Shown here piece by piece: positions 1 through 25,819 of a stretch of DNA of 39,152 nucleotides. The notes beneath the pieces are model-generated. The model did no database searches. It worked only from the letters and a program-made list of their open reading frames with translations, and was not told where the DNA came from. The translations under genes and the position numbers were made by a program. Each line of letters begins with the position of its first letter. Position 1 is the stretch's first letter. The stretch comes from a phage. The stretch lies in the sequence record PX759567.1. One strand, given 5' to 3'.

Positions 1-1843
1 CCTTGTGCTGTCACGATTGATTCACTCTAACCTGAAAGATACCGATATGGGTCTTCTGCGTTCCGGTAAGTTGCCGGGGAAACGCTTTGGGTCTCACGCT
101 CTGGAGGCGTGGGGCTATCGCTTGGGCGAGATGAAGGGTGAATACAAGGACGACTTTAAGCGTATGCTTGAAGAGCAGGGTGAAGAATACGTTGACGGAA
201 TGGAGTGGTGGAACTTCAACGAAGAGATGATGGACTATAACGTGCAGGACGTTGTGGTCACTAAGGCTCTCCTTGAGAAGCTACTCTCTGACAAACATTA
301 CTTCCCTCCTGAGATTGACTTTACGGACGTAGGATACACTACGTTCTGGTCAGAATCCCTTGAGGCCGTTGACGTTGAACATCGTGCTGCATGGCTGCTC
401 GCTAAGCAAGAGCGCAATGGGTTCCCGTTTGACACTAAAGCAATCGAAGAGTTGTACGTAGAGTTAGCTACTCGACGCTCTGAGTTGCTCCGTAAATTGA
501 CCGAAACGTTCGGCTCGTGGTATCAGCCTAAAGGTGGCACCGAAATGTTCTGCCATCCGAGGACCGGTAAGCCACTACCTAAATACCCTCGCATTAAGAC
601 ACCTAAAGTTGGTGGTATCTTTAAGAAGCCTAAGAACAAGGCACAGCGAGAGGGCCGTGAGCCTTGCGAACTGGATACCCGCGAGTACGTTGCTGGTGCC
701 CCTTATACTCCAGTAGAGCACGTGGTGTTTAACCCTTCGTCTCGTGACCACATCCAGAAGAAACTCCAAGAGGCTGGATGGGTCCCAACGAAGTACACCG
801 ATAAGGGTGCTCCTGTGGTGGACGATGAGGTACTCGAAGGAGTGCGTGTAGATGACCCTGAGAAGCAAGCTGCCATCGACCTCATTAAAGAGTACCTGAT
901 GATTCAGAAGAGAATCGGACAGTCTGCTGAGGGAGACAAGGCTTGGCTTCGTTACGTTGCTGAGGACGGTAAGATTCATGGTTCTGTTAATCCCAACGGC
1001 GCTGTTACTGGTCGTGCTACTCACGCTTTCCCTAACCTAGCACAGATACCCGGTGTCCGTTCTCCTTACGGGGAGCAATGTCGCGCTGCTTTTGGCGCTG
1101 AGCACCATTTGGATGGGCTAACTGGTAAGCCTTGGGTTCAGGCAGGTATCGACGCATCCGGCCTTGAGTTGCGCTGCTTGGCTCACTTCATGGCTCGATT
1201 TGATAACGGTGAGTACGCTCACGAGATTCTTAATGGCGACATCCACACTAAGAACCAGATAGCTGCTGAATTGCCTACCCGTGATAACGCTAAGACGTTC
1301 ATCTATGGGTTCCTCTATGGTGCTGGTGATGAGAAGATTGGACAGATTGTTGGTGCTGGTAAAGAGCGTGGTAAGGAACTCAAGAAGAAATTCCTTGAGA
1401 ACACCCCTGCGATTGCAGCACTCCGCGAGTCTATCCAACAGACACTTGTCGAGTCCTCTCAGTGGGTAGCTGGTGAGCAACAAGTCAAGTGGAAACGCCG
1501 CTGGATTAAAGGTCTGGATGGTCGTAAGGTACACGTTCGTAGTCCTCACGCTGCCTTGAATACACTACTGCAATCTGCTGGTGCTCTCATCTGCAAACTG
1601 TGGATTATCAAGACCGAAGAGATGCTCGTAGAGAAAGGCTTGAAGCATGGCTGGGATGGGGACTTTGCGTACATGGCATGGGTACACGATGAAATCCAAG
1701 TAGGTTGCCGTACCGAAGAGATTGCTCAGGTTGTTATTGAGACATCACAAGAAGCAATGCGCTGGGTTGGAGACCACTGGAACTTCCGGTGTCTTCTGGA
1801 TACCGAAGGTAAGATGGGCCCTAATTGGGCCGTATGTCACTGA
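1..1843 (+). CDS. 5: DNA polymerase gp5, 3' portion (gene wraps around window boundary)
   Basis: ORF 5..1843 matches T7 gp5 C-terminal 612 aa (ends MGPNWAVCH*); reading frame continues from 38881..39152 (272+1843 nt = 704 codons + stop). Confidence 0.95.
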
Positions 1844-1862
1844 TTCTAAAGGAGAAATTATT

Positions 1863-2165
1863 ATGGCTATCACTAAGAAATTTAAAGTGTCCTTCGACGT
1901 TACCGCTGTAATTACTAGCGAAGGTGAACAAAACCTACAAGACTACGTCATGCGAGTTGCCAAGGCAGTAGCCGCTGGTGAACAAGTTGATGACTTTAAG
2001 AAAGAGTTGCTTGTCCAAGCGTTGACGAATGGTCCTGAGGGCCTCGCTACGTTCCTGATTAAGCATGGACTTCGCTCATTCGTTAAGGATAGCTACAATG
2101 ACCTGAGCGAGTCTGAGCGTAAACTGATTCGACTCTCTCCTGCAACAGTACGGGAGGTGTTCTGA
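1863..2165 (+). CDS. 5.5: gene 5.5 protein (H-NS binding in T7)
   Basis: ATG at 1863 preceded by AAGGAG; translation MAITKKFKVSFDV...ATVREVF; position directly after gene 5. Confidence 0.85.
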   Translation: MAITKKFKVSFDVTAVITSEGEQNLQDYVMRVAKAVAAGEQVDDFKKELLVQALTNGPEGLATFLIKHGLRSFVKDSYNDLSESERKLIRLSPATVREVF

Positions 2166-12912: not shown

Positions 12913-15156
12913 ATGAGTAAAATTGAATCTGCCCTTCAAGCGGCACAACCGGGACTCTCTCGGTTACGTGGTGGCGCTGGTGGTATGGGCTATCGTGCAG
13001 CAACCACTCAGGCTGAACAGCCAAGGTCAAGTCTATTGGACACCATTGGTCGGTTCGCTAAGGCTGGTGCTGATACGTATGCCGCTAAGGAACAGAGAGC
13101 ACGAGACCTAGCTGACGAACGTTCTAACGAGATTATCCGTAAGTTGACCCCTGAGCAACGCCGAGAGGCTCTCAACAACGGGACCCTTCTGTATCAGGAT
13201 GACCCATACGCTATGGAAGCACTCCGAGTCAAGACTGGTCGTAACGCAGCGTACCTTGTGGACGATGACGTTATGCAGAAGGTCAAAGAGGGTGTCTTCC
13301 GTACTCGTGAGGAGATGGAACAGTATCGTCATAGTCGTCTTCAAGAGGGCGCTAAGGCATACGCTGAGCAGTTCGGTATTGACCCAGAGGACGTTGATTA
13401 TCAGCGTGGTTTCAACGGGGACATCACCGAGCGTAACATCTCGCTGTATGGTGCACACGATAACTTCTTGAGCCAGCAAGCTCAGAAGGGTGCCATCATG
13501 AACAGCCGAGTGGAACTCAACGGTGTCCTTCAAGACCCTGATATGCTTCGCCGCCCAGACTCTGCTGACTTCTTTGAGAAGTACATCGACAATGGTCTGG
13601 TTACTGGGGCAATCCCATCTGATGCTCAAGCCACGCAGCTTATAAGCCAAGCGTTCAGTGACGCTTCTAGCCGTGCTGGTGGCGCTGACTTCCTGATGCG
13701 AGTCGGGGACAAGAAGGTAACGCTCAACGGGGCCACTACGACTTACCGAGAGTTGATGGGTGAGGAACAGTGGAATGCTCTAATGGTGACAGCACAACGC
13801 TCTCAGTTTGAGAATGACGCTAAGCTGAACGAGCAGTATCGTTTGAAGATTAACTCTGCGCTGAACCAAGAGGACCCGAGGACAGCTTGGGAGATGCTCC
13901 AAGGTATCAAGGCTGAACTCGATAAGGTTCAACCTGATGAGCAGATGACACCACAACGCGAGTGGTTAATCTCAGCACAGGAGCAAGTTCAGAATCAGAT
14001 GAACGCATGGACGAAAGCTCAGGCCAAGGCTCTGGATGACTCCATGAAGTCTATGAACAAACTTGACGTAATCGACAAGCAATTCCAGAAGCGAATCAAC
14101 GGTGAGTGGGTCTCAACGGACTTTAAGGATATGCCAGTCAATGAGAACACTGGTGAGTTCAAGCATAGTGATATGGTTAACTATGCCAATAAGAAGCTCG
14201 CTGAGATTGACAGTATGGACATTCCAGACGGTGCCAAGGATGCTATGAAGTTGAAGTACCTTCAAGCTGACTCTAAGGACGGAGCATTCCGTACAGCAAT
14301 CGGAACTATGGTTACTGATGCTGGTCAAGAGTGGTCTGCCGCTGTGATTAACGGTAAGTTACCAGAACGAACACCAGCTATGGATGCTCTACGCAGAATC
14401 CGCAATGCTGACCCTCAGTTGATTGCTGCGCTATACCCAGACCAAGCTGAGCTATTCCTGACTATGGACATGATGGACAAGCAGGGCATTGACCCTCAGG
14501 TTATTCTTGACGCTGACCGACTGACTGCCAAACGTTCCAAAGAGCAACGCTTCGAGGATGATAAGGCATTCGAGTCTGCACTGAATAGCTCTACGGCTCC
14601 TGAGATTGCCCGTATGCCAGCGTCACTTCGTGAATCTGCGCGTAAGATTTATGACTCCGTTAAGTATCGCTCAGGGAACGAAAGCATGGCTATGGAGCAG
14701 ATGACCAAGTTCCTTCAGGAGTCTACCTACACGTTCACTGGTGATGATGTTGATGGTGATACCGTTGGTGTAATTCCTAAGAACATGATACAGGTTAACT
14801 CTGACCCGAAATCGTGGGAGCAAGGTCGTGACATTCTGGAGGAAGCACGTAAGGGAATCATTGCGAGCAACCCTTGGATAACCAACAAGCAACTGACCAT
14901 GTATTCTCAAGGTGACTCCATTTACCTCATGGACACCACTGGTCAAGTCCGAGTACGTTATGATAAAGAGTTACTCTCGAAGGTCTGGAGTGAGAACCAG
15001 AAGAAACTCGAAGAGAAGGCTCGCGAGAAGGCTCTGGCTGATGTTAACAAGCGAGCACCTATAGTTGCCGCTACGAAGGCCCGTGAAGCTGGAGCTAAAC
15101 GAGTACGAGAGAAACGTAAACAGACTCCGAAGTTCATCTATGGACGTAAGGAGTAA
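12913..15156 (+). CDS. 15: internal virion protein C gp15
   Basis: 747-aa ORF as in T7. Confidence 0.95.
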   Translation: MSKIESALQAAQPGLSRLRGGAGGMGYRAATTQAEQPRSSLLDTIGRFAKAGADTYAAKEQRARDLADERSNEIIRKLTPEQRREALNNGTLLYQDDPYAMEALRVKTGRNAAYLVDDDVMQKVKEGVFRTREEMEQYRHSRLQEGAKAYAEQFGIDPEDVDYQRGFNGDITERNISLYGAHDNFLSQQAQKGAIMNSRVELNGVLQDPDMLRRPDSADFFEKYIDNGLVTGAIPSDAQATQLISQAFSDASSRAGGADFLMRVGDKKVTLNGATTTYRELMGEEQWNALMVTAQRSQFENDAKLNEQYRLKINSALNQEDPRTAWEMLQGIKAELDKVQPDEQMTPQREWLISAQEQVQNQMNAWTKAQAKALDDSMKSMNKLDVIDKQFQKRINGEWVSTDFKDMPVNENTGEFKHSDMVNYANKKLAEIDSMDIPDGAKDAMKLKYLQADSKDGAFRTAIGTMVTDAGQEWSAAVINGKLPERTPAMDALRRIRNADPQLIAALYPDQAELFLTMDMMDKQGIDPQVILDADRLTAKRSKEQRFEDDKAFESALNSSTAPEIARMPASLRESARKIYDSVKYRSGNESMAMEQMTKFLQESTYTFTGDDVDGDTVGVIPKNMIQVNSDPKSWEQGRDILEEARKGIIASNPWITNKQLTMYSQGDSIYLMDTTGQVRVRYDKELLSKVWSENQKKLEEKAREKALADVNKRAPIVAATKAREAGAKRVREKRKQTPKFIYGRKE

Positions 15157-15182
15157 CTAAAGGCTACATAAGGAGGCCCTAA

Positions 15183-18100
15183 ATGGATAAGTACGATAAG
15201 AACGTACCAAGTGAGTATGATGGTCTGTTCCAGAAGGCGGCTGATGCCACAGGGGTCTCTTATGACCTTTTACGTAAAGTCGCTTGGACAGAATCACGAT
15301 TTGTGCCTACAGCAAAATCCAAGACTGGACCATTAGGCATGATGCAATTCACCAAGGAAACCGCTAAGGCCCTCGGTCTGCGAGTTACCGATGGTCCAGA
15401 CGACGACCGACTGAACCCTGAGTTAGCCATCAATGCTGCCGCTAAGCACCTTGCAGGTCTGGTAGGTAAATTCGATGGTGATGAACTCAAAGCTGCCCTT
15501 GCGTATAACCAAGGCGAGGGACGCTTGGGTAATCCTCAACTTGAGGCGTACTCAAAGGGAGACTTCGCGTCCATCTCTGAGGAGGGGCGTAATTACATGC
15601 GTAGCCTTCTGGATGTTGCTAAGTCACCTATGGCTGGACAGTTGGAAACTTTTGGAGGTATCACCCCAAAGGGTAAAGGCATTCCGGCTGAGGTAGGATT
15701 GGCTGGAATTGGTCATAAGCAGAAGGTGACACAGGAACTACCTGAGTCCACAAGTTTTGACGTTAAGGGTATCGAACAGGAGGCTCCGGCGAAACCATTC
15801 GCCAAGGACTTTTGGGAGACCCACGGAGAAACGCTTGACGAATACAACAGTCGTTCAACCTTCTTCGGATTCAAAAATGCTGCCGAAGCTGAACTCTCCA
15901 ACTCAGTCGCTGGGATGGCTTTCCGTGCTGGTCGTCTCGATAATGGTTTTGACGTGTTTAAAGACACCATTACGCCGACTCGCTGGAACTCTCACATCTG
16001 GACTCCAGAAGAGTTAGAGAAGATTAGAACAGAGGTTAAGAACCCTGCGTACATCAACGTGGTAACTGGTGGTTCCCCTGAGAATCTTGATGACCTTATT
16101 AAGCTGGCTAACGAGAACTTTGAGAATGACTCACTCGCTGCCGAAGCTGGTCTAGGTGCAAAACTGAGTGCTGGTATTATTGGCGCTGGCGTGGACCCTC
16201 TTAGCTATGTCCCTATGGTCGGTGTCACTGGTAAGGGCTTTAAGTTAATCAATAAGGCTCTTGTAGTTGGTGCCGAAAGCGCTGCTCTGAACGTTGCATC
16301 CGAAGGTCTCCGTACCTCCGTAGCTGGTGGTGACGCAGACTATGCGGGTGCTGCCTTAGGTGGCTTTGTGTTTGGTGCTGGTATGTCCGCAATCAGTGAC
16401 GCTGTAGCTGCTGGTCTGAAACGTAGTAAACCAGAAGCTGAGTTCGATAATGAGTTCATTGGTCCTATGATGCGAATGGAAGCCCGTGAGACAGCGCGTA
16501 ACGCCAACTCTGCGGACCTCTCTCGTATGAACACTGAGAACATGAAGTTTGAGGGTGAGCATAACGGAGTACCTTATGAGGACCTTCCTACTGAGAAGGG
16601 CGCTGTGGTACTGCACGATGGCTCCGTTCTAAGTGCAAGCAACCCAATCAACCCTAAGACCCTCAAAGAGTTCTCTGAGGTTTACCCTGAGAAGGCTGCG
16701 CGAGGAATCAAACTTGCTGGGTTCACCGAGATTGGCTTGAAGACCTTGGGGTCTGACGATGCTGACATCCGTAGAGTGGCTATCGACCTCGTTCGCTCTC
16801 CTACCGGTATGCAGTCTGGTGCCTCCGGTAAGTTCGGTGCAACAGCTTCTGACATCCATGAGAGACTTCATGGTACTGACCAGCGTACTTACAATGACTT
16901 GTACAAAGCAATGTCTGACGCTATGAAAGACCCTGAGTTCTCTACTGGTGGAGCTAAGATGTCCCGTGAAGAAACTCGCTACACTATCTACCGTAGAGCG
17001 GCACTGGCTATTGAGCGCCCAGAGTTACAGAAGGCACTCACTCCGTCTGAGAGAATCGTTATGGACATCATTAAGCGTCACTTTGACACCAAGCGTGAAC
17101 TCATGGAGAATCCCGCAATCTTCGGTAATACGAAGGCTGTGAGTATCTTCCCTGAGAGTCGTCATAAGGGAACCTACGTTCCCCACGTATACGACCGACA
17201 CGCTAAGGCAATGATGATTCAGCGCTACGGTGCCGAAGGTTTACAGGAAGGTATTGCTCGTTCGTGGATGAACAGCTACGTCTCCAGACCTGAGGTCAAG
17301 GCCAGAGTCGATGAGATGCTTAAGGAAGTACACGGGGTGAAGGAAGTAACTCCAGAGATGGTAGAGAAGTACGCTATGGATAAGGCTTACGGTATCTCCC
17401 ATTCAGACCAGTTCTCCAACAGTTCCATCATCGAAGAGAACATTGAGGGCTTAGTAGGTATTGAGAACAACTCATTCCTTGAGGCACGTAACTTGTTTGA
17501 TTCGGACCTATCAATCACTATGCCGGACGGACAGCAATTCTCAGTGAACGACCTAAGGGACTTCGATATGTTCCGCATCATGCCAGCGTATGACCGCCGT
17601 ATCAATGGTGACATCGCTATCATGGGGTCTACAGGGAAAACAACTAAGGAACTTAAGGATGAGATTTTGGCTCTCAAAGCGAAAGCTGAGGGAGACGGTA
17701 AGAAGACTGGCGAGGTTCACGCTCTAACGGATACCGTTAAGATTCTTACTGGTCGTGCTCGACGTAATCAGGACACTGTGTGGGAAACCTCACTGCGTTC
17801 CATCAATGACCTAGGGTTCTTCGCTAAGAACGCCTACATGGGTGCTCAGAACATTACGGAGATTGCTGGGATGATCGCCACTGGTAACGTTCGTGCTCTC
17901 GGTCACGGTATACCAATTCTGCGCGATACGCTCTACAAGTCTAAACCAGTTTCCGCTAAGGAACTCAAGGAACTCCATGCGTCTCTGTTCGGGAAGGAGG
18001 TGGACCAGTTGATTCGGCCTAAACGTGCTGACATTGTGCAGCGCCTAAGGGAAGCAACTGATACCGGACCTGCTGTGGCGAACATCGTAGGGACCTTGAA

Positions 18101-21971: not shown

Positions 21972-22454
21972 ATGTCTACTCAAGCCAATCGTAATGCGCT
22001 CGTAGTGGCGCAACTGAAAGGAGACTTCGTGGCGTTCCTGTTCGTCTTATGGAAGGCGTTAAACCTTCCTGTTCCAACTAAGTGTCAGATTGACATGGCT
22101 AAGGTGCTGGCGAATGGAGACAACAAGAAGTTCATCTTACAGGCTTTCCGTGGTATCGGTAAGTCGTTCATCACGTGTGCGTTCGTTGTGTGGTCCTTAT
22201 GGAGAGACCCTCAGTTGAAGATACTTATCGTATCAGCCTCTAAGGAACGTGCAGACGCTAACTCCATCTTTATTAAGAACATCATTGACCTGCTGCCGTT
22301 TCTCAGCGAGTTGAAGCCAAGACCCGGACAGCGTGACTCTGTGATTAGTTTCGACGTAGGTCCAGCTAAGCCTGACCACTCTCCTAGTGTGAAATCGGTA
22401 GGTATCACCGGTCAGTTAACTGGTAGCCGTGCTGACATTATTATTGCGGACGAT
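21972..22454 (+). CDS. 19: terminase large subunit gp19, exon 1
   Basis: N-terminal 161 codons matching T7 gp19 (...[15 protein letters not shown]); frame then hits GAA TAA inside the intron. Confidence 0.9.
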
Positions 22455-23290
22455 GAATAACCATGTCGTCCTTAAACCCATCTAAACAGGGAAACCCGGA
22501 GCCTAACATGGTATACGGCAATCCTGTGCTAAATGAGACAGCCATAAAGAGCCTTATAGGCCCCCTAAGCGTCTCTAAATGCCAAACGACTAAGTAGTAG
22601 GGCCAAGTGGCTCGAAACGGTGGGAGAGCATTTACGGATGCTCTAAGATATAGTCTCGTCTATGGTGAGAAGCCATAGCACCATTTATTACGTAACACAT
22701 AAGGAGTCTAACATGACCACTATGAAGAAAACTCGATATGAAGTAGGTTCAATCCATGAGTCCCCTAAAGGTCCGCTCAAGGTCCTCGAGTACATTCCGG
22801 GATATAAGGACCGCTCAACAGGTAAAAAAGTACATCCTCGCGTAGTAATTCGTATGATGAACACAGGGACTGTGCTCAACGTTCAAACCACGAATATACC
22901 AGATGGTAAGTTTGAGGACTATCGACGTACCACAGTTTACGGCATTGGGTATATAGGGTCTTCCATTAAAATCACCGCTAGAGGGACATTCATCCGGCGT
23001 GTGTATGACCTATGGGCCAACATGCTTAAGCGCGTGGTTCATGAGTATCAGGGAGTATCCGTGGACCCAAGATGGCTCAACTTTACGAATTTCTTGGCGA
23101 CTATTCCGGATGTTAAGGGATATGCTGCGTGGGAGCGTGGTGAGGATGTTCATCTGGATAAAGACCTAGCTGGGAATAAACGATACTCATTGGAGGACTG
23201 TGCGTTCATTCCAGCTAAAGACAACATTCGAGAGTCTTCGTTACGTAGGTGGCGTAAGAAATAACGAGCTTACGTTAAGATAATTATTCG
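22455..23290 (+). mobile_element. group I self-splicing intron (probably IA-type) within gene 19
   Basis: P1: exon GGACGAU (22448-22454) pairs with IGS GUCGUCC (22465-22471), U.G at splice site; ends in G; R/S-like core CGACUA (22587-22592) and AAGAUAUAGUC (22645-22655); P8-like hairpin 22625-22644; ligated exons restore D-D-V-E. Confidence 0.85.
22713..23264 (+). CDS. intron-encoded protein, family not recognised (putative homing endonuclease)
   Basis: 183 aa from ATG 22713 with AAGGAG 6 nt upstream (ORF track starts at 22662); lies 3' of the P7 strand; no canonical HNH, GIY-YIG or LAGLIDADG motif seen. Confidence 0.7.
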   Translation: MTTMKKTRYEVGSIHESPKGPLKVLEYIPGYKDRSTGKKVHPRVVIRMMNTGTVLNVQTTNIPDGKFEDYRRTTVYGIGYIGSSIKITARGTFIRRVYDLWANMLKRVVHEYQGVSVDPRWLNFTNFLATIPDVKGYAAWERGEDVHLDKDLAGNKRYSLEDCAFIPAKDNIRESSLRRWRKK

Positions 23291-24568
23291 GTGGAAATTC
23301 CATCTAACAGTGCAACTATGGGTGCCCGTGAGAAGTTATGGACTCTTGTTCAGGAGTTCGCTGCGTTACTTAAGCCGCTGCCTTCCTCTCGTGTTATCTA
23401 CCTTGGAACACCTCAGACCGAGATGACTCTCTATAAGGAACTTGAGGATAACCGTGGGTATACCACTATTATCTGGCCTGCTCTGTACCCAAGGACACAC
23501 GAAGAGAACCTCTATTACTCACAGCGTCTTGCTCCTATGCTACGTGCTGAGTACGATGAGAACCCTGAGGCACTCGCTGGGACTCCAACAGACCCTGTGC
23601 GCTTTGACCGTGATGACCTGCGTGAGCGTGAGTTGGAATACGGTAAGGCTGGCTTCACACTACAGTTCATGCTTAACCCGAACCTGAGTGATGCTGAGAA
23701 GTACCCTCTGAGGCTCCGTGACGCTATCGTAGCGGCCTTAGACTTAGAGAAGGCCCCAATGCATTACCAGTGGCTTCCGAACCGTCAGAACATCATTGAG
23801 GACCTTCCTAACGTTGGCCTTAAGGGTGATGACCTTCATACTTATCATGATTGCTCCAACAACTCAGGTCAGTACCAACAGAAGATTCTGGTCATTGACC
23901 CTAGTGGTCGCGGTAAGGACGAAACAGGTTACGCTGTGCTGTACACTCTGAACGGCTACATCTACCTAATGGAAGCTGGAGGTTTCCGTGATGGTTACTC
24001 CGATAAGACCCTTGAGTTGCTCGCTAAGAAAGCGAAGCAATGGGGAGTCCAGACGGTTGTCTACGAGAGTAACTTCGGTGACGGTATGTTTGGTAAGGTG
24101 TTCAGTCCTATCCTTCTTAAACACCACAACTGTGCAATGGAAGAGATTCGTGCTCGTGGTATGAAGGAGATGCGTATTTGTGATACCCTTGAGCCAGTCA
24201 TGCAGACTCACCGCCTTGTCATTCGTGATGAGGTCATTAGGGCCGACTACCAGTCCGCTCGTGACGTAGACGGTAAGCATGACGTTAAGTACTCACTGTT
24301 CTACCAGATGACCCGTATCACTCGCGAGAAAGGTGCTCTGGCTCATGATGACCGATTGGATGCCCTTGCGTTAGGCATTGAGTATCTCCGTGAGTCCATG
24401 CAGTTGGATTCCGTTAAGGTCGAAGGTGAAGTAATTGCTGACTTCCTTGAGGAACACATGATGCGCCCTACAGTGTCTGCTACCCACATCATTGAGATGT
24501 CTGTAGGAGGAGTTGATGTGTACTCTGAGGACGATGAGGGTTACGGTACGTCTTTCATTGAGTGGTAA
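23291..24568 (+). CDS. 19: terminase large subunit gp19, exon 2
   Basis: translation (V)[22 protein letters not shown]...SFIEW continues the T7 gp19 sequence; the GTG at 23291 is codon V, not a start. Confidence 0.9.
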
Positions 24569-24605: not shown

Positions 24606-25067
24606 ATGATAAACAAGAAGAAGTATGTTGTCGATAAGGAGACTGGTTGCTGGAACTTTAAGGGATGCAAGACTAAGACAGGCTATGGTCGTCTCCGTGT
24701 AAATGGAGTCCATTGGATGGCTCACAGGTATTCCCTGAGTTGTCATCTAGGTAGACCGATAGCTGATGGAATGGTTGTGATGCACCTTTGTGATAACCCG
24801 TCATGTGTTAACCCTGAGCACCTTAAGGAAGGGACTCAGAAGGAGAATATGGATGACTGTAAGGCCAAAGGTAGGATGTACAGACCGGGGGCCACAGGCA
24901 AACCAAAGACCAGTACGGCGAAGGTTATCTATCACGATGACTGGCGTAAAGACCAAGTTATCCGCTACCATGTACGCTGGAAATGGAAGCCGTCTCGTAT
25001 TGCTGAGAAGATGAGACTATCTATAACGTGGGTTAAGAGGGTCTTAGAGGAGTACGTAAGTCATTGA
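24606..25067 (+). CDS. free-standing HNH homing endonuclease (HNH_3-like)
   Basis: 153-aa ORF, strong RBS TAAGGAGG; motifs GCWNF..TGYGRL..AHRYS..HLCDNPSCVNPEHL..EN; no counterpart at this locus in T7. Confidence 0.85.
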   Translation: MINKKKYVVDKETGCWNFKGCKTKTGYGRLRVNGVHWMAHRYSLSCHLGRPIADGMVVMHLCDNPSCVNPEHLKEGTQKENMDDCKAKGRMYRPGATGKPKTSTAKVIYHDDWRKDQVIRYHVRWKWKPSRIAEKMRLSITWVKRVLEEYVSH

Positions 25068-25635: not shown

Positions 25636-25800
25636 TCTCACAGTGTACGGACCCAAAGTTCCCCCATAGGGGGTACCTAAAGCCCAGCCAATCACCTAAA
25701 GTCAACCTTCGGTTGACCTTGAGGGTTCCCTAGGGGTTGGGATGACCCTTGGGTTTACCTTTGAGTGTTGCCTTGGGTGTAACCTTGAGTGTCTCTCTGT
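25636..25800. repeat. terminal repeat region / concatemer junction (single copy in this permuted representation)
   Basis: TCTCACAGTGTACGGACC... matches the T7 left-end sequence as recalled; TR extent (about 160 bp) inferred from T7. Confidence 0.5.
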
Positions 25801-25819
25801 GTCCCTATCTGTTACAGTC

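What the first reader, a model, noticed from the sequence alone, without database searches (positions are those of the whole stretch)
1844..1862. Gene 5.3 absent: gene 5 is followed after 19 nt by gene 5.5
In T7 an HNH-like gene 5.3 of about 118 aa lies between genes 5 and 5.5 (from memory). Here the gene 5 stop at 1843 is followed directly by the 5.5 RBS and ATG at 1863. Related gp5.3-type endonucleases are implicated in marker exclusion between T7-group phages, so this phage has a clean empty site at that locus.
Basis: partly seen in the sequence, partly recalled or inferred. Interest (0 to 1): 0.4.

Follow-up and report, generated by a model that had tools for sequence, protein, structure and literature searches.

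The report
Ordinary empty gene 5.3 slot
This T7-like phage has no gene 5.3 between its DNA polymerase gene and gene 5.5, but that is the normal state of most T7 relatives, because gene 5.3 is a rare selfish nuclease gene that T7 happens to carry.

Summary
Gene 5 ends with TGA at 1841-1843. A 19-nt spacer (1844-1862) carries the gene 5.5 ribosome-binding site, and gene 5.5 starts at 1863. T7 has 383 nt here, including gene 5.3 (118 aa). The interpretation needs three corrections.

1. T7 gp5.3 is not HNH-like. It is a PD-(D/E)XK (Pfam PDDEXK_5, I-Ssp6803I-like) nuclease. The HNH "gp5.3" belongs to T3-group phages, is unrelated, and sits in the same slot.
2. The empty slot is the majority state, not a peculiarity. 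The same 19-nt spacer, differing by one base, is in 13a, JacobBurckhardt, Bas103, Sekstaphage-1 and 066044. Only 107 of 50,697 phage records encode a T7-type gp5.3, and 57 of them match T7's protein at 95% or more.
3. I could not verify any role of gp5.3 in marker exclusion.

One new point emerged. In Teseptimavirus, Przondovirus and Kayfunavirus, phages with gp5.3 carry a distinct variant of the last 4-5 codons of gene 5. This window has the variant found in phages without gp5.3 (GCC GTA TGT CAC TGA). That pattern marks the end of gene 5 as the likely gp5.3 homing site or co-conversion tract. This is inferred, not shown.

Verdict: real, already known, low interest.

The parts
1..1843 (+). 3' 1843 nt of gene 5 (T7-type DNA polymerase). 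The 5' end of the gene lies at the end of the window because the record is circularly permuted. The gene has no intron.
   Evidence: 94.7% identical to T7 14625-16468 without gaps; ORF list; 13a and T7 annotation.
1829..1843 (+). Last four codons plus stop of gene 5, GCC GTA TGT CAC TGA (A V C H *). This is the allele linked to absence of PD-(D/E)XK gp5.3, and the candidate gp5.3 recognition or co-conversion segment (inferred).
   Evidence: gp5.3-negative phages share CCGTATGTCACTRA; gp5.3-positive T7, 64795_ec1 and KP32 have [G/A]ATTTGCCA[C/T]T[G/A]A. IMG/VR scans: 0 of 58 versus 4 of 5 contigs followed by gp5.3. There are 4-6 mismatches in the last 15 nt in plus/minus pairs, against 0-2 in pairs of the same state.
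1844..1862 (+). 19-nt intergenic spacer TTCTAAAGGAGAAATTATT, the unoccupied gene 5.3 slot. T7's 365-nt gene 5.3 segment replaces the single base 1845.
   Evidence: The spacer is TTCTATAGGAGAAATTATT in 13a, JacobBurckhardt, Sekstaphage-1 and 066044, one base different from the window. T7 keeps CTATAGGAGAAATTATT to the right of gene 5.3.
1849..1854 (+). Shine-Dalgarno sequence AAGGAG of gene 5.5, 8 nt upstream of the ATG.
   Evidence: Read directly; conserved in all empty-site relatives.
1863..2165 (+). Gene 5.5 (H-NS-binding protein family), 100 aa plus stop.
   Evidence: Pfam Phage_T7_55 E 8.6e-21 over the full length; 'host HNS-interacting protein' in JacobBurckhardt.
1686..1688 (+). Unoccupied insertion site of the gene 5 group I intron that carries an HNH endonuclease in 13a, Bas103, Sekstaphage-1 and PDP351P2. 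It lies in the codons for V-H-D-E.
   Evidence: PDP351P2 has 602 extra nt between window 1686 and 1688. 13a and Bas103 gene 5 are annotated as two joined pieces with an internal HNH gene.

Best explanation
The 19 nt at 1844-1862 are the ordinary spacer between genes 5 and 5.5 of T7-group phages and carry only the gene 5.5 ribosome-binding site. The slot is the natural unoccupied allele of a site that, in a minority of phages, holds a free-standing homing-endonuclease gene. In T7 and scattered members of four genera the occupant is a PD-(D/E)XK gp5.3. In the T3 group it is an unrelated HNH gp5.3. Shown: the anatomy, the sporadic distribution, the precise insertion without target duplication, and the nuclease family. 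Inferred: gp5.3 cuts the empty allele at or near the end of gene 5, repair from a gp5.3-carrying co-infecting genome copies the gene in, and the variant last codons of gene 5 in carriers are either a self-immunity change or a co-converted flank. On that reading this phage has the cleavable, invadable allele. Whether its lineage never held gene 5.3 or regained the empty allele by recombination cannot be told.
For: Anatomy. The same spacer occurs in published genomes of two genera (13a, JacobBurckhardt, Bas103, Sekstaphage-1, 066044), with equivalent 17-22 nt spacers in most of 58 IMG/VR contigs. T7-type gp5.3 is rare: 107 of 50,697 phage records, of which 57 match at 95% or more and the listed ones are all T7 strains. 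It always sits between genes 5 and 5.5, in Teseptimavirus (T7, 64795_ec1), Przondovirus (KP32), Kayfunavirus (YZ1, ST66) and Berlinvirus (Kvp1). Nuclease family: Pfam PDDEXK_5 E 1.1e-10; best PDB match 2OST. Insertion is precise: T7 equals the empty spacer plus 364 nt, and the gene 5.3 stop codon uses the spacer's own TAG. Allele linkage holds in three genera. Mismatches are enriched in the last 15 nt of gene 5 in plus/minus pairs, with binomial P of 1e-4 to 0.04. The AVCH allele is followed by gp5.3 in 0 of 58 contigs and the AICH allele in 4 of 5 (Fisher P 8e-6, not corrected for relatedness). A laboratory T7 deletion of gene 5.3 leaves a 45-nt scar and keeps the T7 allele, unlike this site.
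Against: No cleavage or homing activity of T7 gp5.3 was found in the papers I could search; gene 5.3 is only described as non-essential. The allele linkage rests on few independent lineages, and the pattern scans were conditioned on two exact alleles. One distant contig (L026) has the carrier-type allele without gp5.3. The gp5.3-negative phage 066044 has an intermediate GTC TGC CAC. The linkage could be simple hitch-hiking of a short flank, with the real target elsewhere.
Confidence: 0.85

Rival explanations
1. Secondary loss: an ancestor carried a T7-type gene 5.3 and this lineage deleted it.
For: Homing-endonuclease genes are expected to decay and be lost. T7 laboratory lines do lose gene 5.3.
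Against: A real T7 deletion leaves a 45-nt spacer with the gene 5.3 ribosome-binding site, its last codons and the carrier-type gene 5 allele. The window has the exact 19-nt spacer type shared by gp5.3-negative phages of other genera, the non-carrier allele, and no gp5.3 remnant. Loss by recombination with an empty allele cannot be excluded, but it would give the same present state.
Confidence: 0.1
2. Assembly artefact: about 364 nt were dropped from the record.
For: The record is a circularly permuted assembly with the terminal repeat collapsed.
Against: The junction differs by only one base from that of several independently sequenced phages and is typical of dozens of IMG/VR contigs. Reading frames on both sides are intact.
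Confidence: 0.01
3. The slot is just a permissive spot for small accessory genes, and gp5.3 is a domesticated or inactive nuclease with no homing activity. The variant end of gene 5 is then a passively linked flank.
For: Other small ORFs of roughly 50-85 codons, which I did not check for nuclease domains, occupy the same slot in a few contigs (L046, L069, L070). PHROGs lists the gp5.3 family as 'unknown function'. No biochemical data were found.
Against: gp5.3 keeps the aligned PD-(D/E)XK core (DLV...KVQVK) shared with 2OST. It occurs sporadically at one site in four genera. More distant homologues lie at or next to DNA polymerase genes in other phage groups (PJNS034, phiIBB-PAA2, BUCT640). 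The contigs with other small ORFs keep the non-carrier allele, so the allele change is specific to gp5.3.
Confidence: 0.25

Closest known systems
Gene 5/5.5 junction of Escherichia phages 13a (NC_011045) and JacobBurckhardt (MZ501078)
   Same: Gene 5 stop, a 19-nt spacer (TTCTATAGGAGAAATTATT), then the gene 5.5 ATG. Same gene 5 end, GCC GTA TGT CAC TGA. No gene 5.3.
   Different: One base in the spacer (A instead of T at window 1849). 13a also has a group I intron with an HNH gene inside gene 5, which this phage lacks.
T7 gene 5.3 locus (NC_001604 16468-16850)
   Same: Same flanking genes. The right-hand 17 nt of the spacer and the gene 5.5 start are identical.
   Different: T7 has 364 extra nt encoding a 118-aa PD-(D/E)XK protein with its own ribosome-binding site, and a different end of gene 5 (GCG ATT TGC CAC, A I C H).
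I-Ssp6803I (PDB 2OST; name from my own knowledge), the PD-(D/E)XK homing endonuclease that I recall as the founding member of Pfam PDDEXK_5
   Same: T7 gp5.3 aligns over residues 5-97 with the conserved DLV...KVQVK core.
   Different: I-Ssp6803I is intron-encoded in a cyanobacterial tRNA gene (own knowledge). gp5.3 is free-standing. The single-sequence match is weak (E 0.013). No such gene exists in this window.
T3-group gp5.3 (T3 NP_523323, phiYeO3-12, SH2, F2M1C)
   Same: Occupies the same slot directly after gene 5 and is annotated as a homing endonuclease.
   Different: It belongs to the HNH family and is 51% identical to the HNH protein of the 13a gene 5 intron. It is unrelated to T7 gp5.3. 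From memory (Bonocora and Shub 2009, not readable here) this group targets the intron insertion site inside gene 5, not the junction.
Free-standing homing endonucleases of T4 (SegB, SegG, MobE)
   Same: Intergenic nuclease genes that are sporadic among relatives and cause preferential inheritance of their locus in mixed infection (abstracts of PMC2330249 and PMC2790892).
   Different: They belong to the GIY-YIG and HNH families, and their activity has been shown experimentally. For gp5.3 it is only inferred.

Membership tests
T7-type gp5.3 (Pfam PDDEXK_5 / PHROG 5018) present in this window | An ORF or remnant homologous to T7, Kvp1 or ST66 gp5.3 | tested here: not met
   tblastn of three gp5.3 variants against the window gives best E values of 0.05-4.4, which are chance-level. 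T7 16469-16833 has no counterpart.
   The only Pfam match of T7 gp5.3 is PDDEXK_5. T7 gp2.8, gp3.8 and gp7.7 do match HNH_3 in the same run. T3 gp5.3 matches HNH PHROGs, whereas T7 gp5.3 matches only phrog_5018.
PD-(D/E)XK homing endonucleases (I-Ssp6803I-like), for T7 gp5.3 | Sequence membership above the curated threshold | tested here: met
   PDDEXK_5 scores 42.1 bits against a cut-off of 26.1. The best PDB match is 2OST.
PD-(D/E)XK homing endonucleases (I-Ssp6803I-like), for T7 gp5.3 | Site-specific cleavage of the allele that lacks the gene | not testable with these tools
   No experimental report was found.
Empty homing site of a free-standing endonuclease gene | Presence or absence of the gene at one fixed position among close relatives, scattered across lineages | tested here: met
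   gp5.3 lies between genes 5 and 5.5 in members of four genera, while close relatives are empty.
Empty homing site of a free-standing endonuclease gene | Precise insertion without target-site duplication | tested here: met
   T7 equals the empty spacer plus 364 nt, with both flanks retained once.
Empty homing site of a free-standing endonuclease gene | Sequence change in the flank of carrier genomes (immunity or co-conversion signature) | tested here: met
   4-6 changes in the last 15 nt of gene 5 in plus/minus pairs of three genera, all synonymous in Kayfunavirus. The sample is small, there is one counter-example (L026), and the carrier Kvp1 was not compared with a gp5.3-negative Berlinvirus.
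Gene 5.5 family (Pfam Phage_T7_55) | Full-length profile match for ORF 1863-2165 | tested here: met
   E 8.6e-21, residues 1-100 on profile positions 1-99 of 99.

The most novel reading that the evidence does not exclude
The last four or five codons of gene 5, together with the 19-nt spacer (window about 1826-1862), form the natural homing site of the uncharacterised PD-(D/E)XK endonuclease gp5.3. Carriers in at least three genera protect themselves by recoding those codons, mostly silently. This phage would therefore be cut and converted by T7 in a mixed infection. That would make gp5.3 a rare example of a free-standing PD-(D/E)XK homing endonuclease in a model phage.
Probability: 0.4. Interest if true: 0.35.

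Novelty: already known. Interest (0 to 1): 0.12.

Why it matters
As stated, the finding matters little. A missing gene 5.3 is the usual condition of T7 relatives and is already visible in published genomes. The useful by-products are threefold. First, a corrected annotation: T7 gp5.3 is PD-(D/E)XK, and only the T3-type gp5.3 is HNH. Second, the gene 5/5.5 slot is a shared landing site for two unrelated nuclease genes and a few small ORFs of unknown function. Third, there is a concrete, cheap prediction of where gp5.3 cuts, which could be tested with T7 and any empty-site phage.

Tried and rejected
- A MAFFT alignment of the window against T7 across the junction scattered the short spacer over the large gap and was not usable for boundaries. 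I used blastn coordinates and anchored flank comparison instead.
- Bonocora and Shub 2004 and 2009 and Zhao et al. 2007 are not held. Reviews that cite them gave only reference-list hits. Searches for 'gp5.3', 'gene 5.3', 'I-TslI' and 'F-TslI' gave no functional data on either gp5.3. What I recall of the 2009 paper is therefore marked as memory only.
- Several paper queries failed on term-length or character rules.
- The IMG/VR scan for the carrier allele returned 21 unrelated chance matches out of 26. I filtered them by requiring a gp5 C-terminus upstream.
- I considered a hidden regulatory element in the spacer and rejected it. No promoter-like or terminator-like site lies in it on the + strand, no T7-type promoter is near it, and the single sigma-70-like match overlapping it, on the minus strand, is at the level expected by chance.
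- An Rfam scan of the whole window at gathering threshold found nothing.
- I considered deletion of a T7-type cassette and assembly error and rejected both (see the rival explanations).

Full report
**What the window is.** The 39,152-nt window is a complete, circularly permuted genome of a Teseptimavirus. It aligns with T7 from gene 5 through the right end. It then crosses a single collapsed terminal repeat (about 25636-25806) into the T7 left end, and runs on to the start of gene 5. The best overall matches over the first 25 kb are phage 13a (94.1%) and T7 (93.6%). PDP351P2 is about 95% identical over most of the genome. Nine T7-type promoter matches are present, six of them perfect.

**The observation.** It is correct as written.
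- Gene 5 ends ...GCC GTA TGT CAC TGA at 1841-1843.
- The next 19 nt, TTCTAAAGGAGAAATTATT (1844-1862), contain AAGGAG 8 nt before the ATG at 1863.
- ORF 1863-2165 is a full-length gene 5.5 protein (Pfam Phage_T7_55, E 8.6e-21).
- In T7, gene 5 ends at 16467, gene 5.3 (118 aa) is 16483-16839, and gene 5.5 starts at 16851.
- T7 16469-16833 has no counterpart in the window, and no gp5.3 remnant exists anywhere in the window.
- Nothing else is in the spacer: no promoter-like or terminator-like site on the + strand, and no phage promoter nearby.

**What gene 5.3 is.**
- The only Pfam match of T7 gp5.3 is PDDEXK_5, at 42 bits against a cut-off of 26.
- Its best solved relative is 2OST, which I recall to be the PD-(D/E)XK homing endonuclease I-Ssp6803I. 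The alignment covers residues 5-97 and shares a DLV...KVQVK core.
- PHROGs files the family as unknown function.
- The HNH genes of T7 are 2.8, 3.8 and 7.7.

The confusion probably comes from the T3 group. T3, phiYeO3-12, SH2 and F2M1C have a 101-110 aa protein, also called gp5.3, in the same slot. It matches HNH families. [quoted passage not shown] It has no similarity to T7 gp5.3. So two unrelated nuclease genes use the same landing site.

**How unusual the empty site is.** It is not unusual.
- A protein search with T7 gp5.3 found matches in only 107 of 50,697 phage records. Of these, 57 match at 95% identity or more, and the listed ones are all T7 laboratory strains.
- The exact spacer type TTCTATAGGAGAAATTATT, one base different from the window, follows gene 5 in 13a, JacobBurckhardt, Sekstaphage-1 and 066044. 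Bas103 has a near-identical version.
- In a spread sample of 1,047 matching records, most rows that span the junction are collinear with the window. The rows with extra DNA are T7 strains, two T3-group phages, and one phage whose extra DNA is the gene 5 intron.
- Of 58 IMG/VR contigs with the window's gene 5 end, 53 run straight into the gene 5.5 ATG after 15-22 nt. The other five hold small ORFs of unknown function.

**Signs that gp5.3 is a homing element.**
- Its homologues sit in the same slot in members of four genera: Teseptimavirus (T7, 64795_ec1), Przondovirus (KP32), Kayfunavirus (YZ1, ST66) and Berlinvirus (Kvp1). Close relatives of the first three are empty.
- More distant homologues lie at or next to DNA polymerase genes of other phage groups.
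- The T7 insertion is precise. It equals the empty spacer plus 364 nt, with no duplication, and the gene 5.3 stop codon uses the TAG already present in the spacer.

**The allele linkage.** The most informative result concerns the end of gene 5.

| Genus | gp5.3 carriers | Non-carriers |
|---|---|---|
| Teseptimavirus and Przondovirus | GC[G/A] ATT TGC CA[C/T] T[G/A]A | GCC GTA TGT CAC T[G/A]A |
| Kayfunavirus | AAA GAA TGC CAT TGA | AAG GAG TGT CAC TAA |

- In Kayfunavirus the five changes are all silent.
- Carrier versus non-carrier pairs show 4-6 mismatches in the last 15 nt of gene 5, against about 1 per 15 nt further upstream. Pairs of the same state show 0-2.
- Binomial P values run from 1e-4 to 0.04.
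- In IMG/VR, the carrier allele in a gene 5 context is followed by gp5.3 in 4 of 5 contigs, and the non-carrier allele in 0 of 58.
- The right flank is not recoded.

This is the pattern expected if the end of gene 5 is the enzyme's target and carriers are immune, or if a short left flank travels with the gene. I cannot separate those two readings. The sample is small, one distant contig (L026) breaks the rule, and 066044 is intermediate. I did not compare the Berlinvirus carrier Kvp1 with a gp5.3-negative Berlinvirus.

**Never invaded or lost?** A laboratory T7 mutant without gene 5.3 has a 45-nt scar and keeps the T7-type gene 5 end. The window has the natural 19-nt spacer and the non-carrier allele. 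A simple deletion of a T7-type cassette is therefore unlikely. Replacement by recombination with an empty allele cannot be told apart from never having been invaded.

**Conclusion.** The finding is a correct description of an ordinary, already documented state. Its interpretation mislabels the protein family and overstates the peculiarity of the site. The prediction that this junction is sensitive to gp5.3 is reasonable and now more specific, but it is untested.

Noticed in passing
window 22455-23290 (gene 19 exons 21972-22454 and 23291-24568): The terminase large-subunit gene is split by an 836-nt insert that looks like a group I intron. Rfam Intron_gpI scores 49 bits against a gathering score of 50, E 3.4e-11, at 22415-22678. 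The 5' exon ends in T and the insert ends in G. The two exons add up to 1761 nt, exactly the length of T7 gene 19. The insert carries a 200-aa ORF (22662-23264) with no Pfam match but PHROG 2081 'HNH endonuclease' at E 7e-44. The same insert is in PDP351P2 (98.8%), Salmonella phages Vi06, CHRF and Sal_R1S (88-89%) and, partly, Yersinia fPS phages (72%). There it is annotated as a split terminase plus an HNH gene. I found no paper describing it as an intron.
   Followed up: partly
window 24606-25067: A free-standing HNH_3 endonuclease gene lies after gene 19. It is 96.7% identical to 13a gp19.4 and absent from T7.
   Followed up: partly
window 4827/4833, 35147/35168, 36106/36141, 32970/32971: The three T7 HNH genes (7.7, 2.8, 3.8) and gene 1.4 are also missing. 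All four T7 nuclease-type accessory genes are therefore absent, while the phage carries two different ones of its own, the gene 19 intron ORF and a gp19.4 homologue.
   Followed up: partly
window 1686-1688: The insertion site of the gene 5 group I intron is unoccupied here. 13a, Bas103, Sekstaphage-1 and PDP351P2 carry an insert of about 600 nt at this site with an HNH gene. In Sekstaphage-1 the intron is annotated as a truncated polymerase plus two extra genes.
   Followed up: partly
window 1906-2136: The interior of gene 5.5 does not align with T7 at the DNA level but matches JacobBurckhardt. This is a mosaic segment inside an otherwise T7-like region.
   Followed up: no
window about 25636-25806: The record is a circular permutation of a linear genome, with the roughly 170-nt terminal repeat present once. 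The stretch aligns to both the right and the left end of T7.
   Followed up: no
IMG/VR loci L046, L076, L089, L069, L070, downstream of the gene 5 stop: Small ORFs of unknown function (roughly 50-85 codons; not checked for nuclease domains) occupy the gene 5/5.5 slot in a few Przondovirus-like and Teseptimavirus-like contigs that keep the non-carrier gene 5 end.
   Followed up: no
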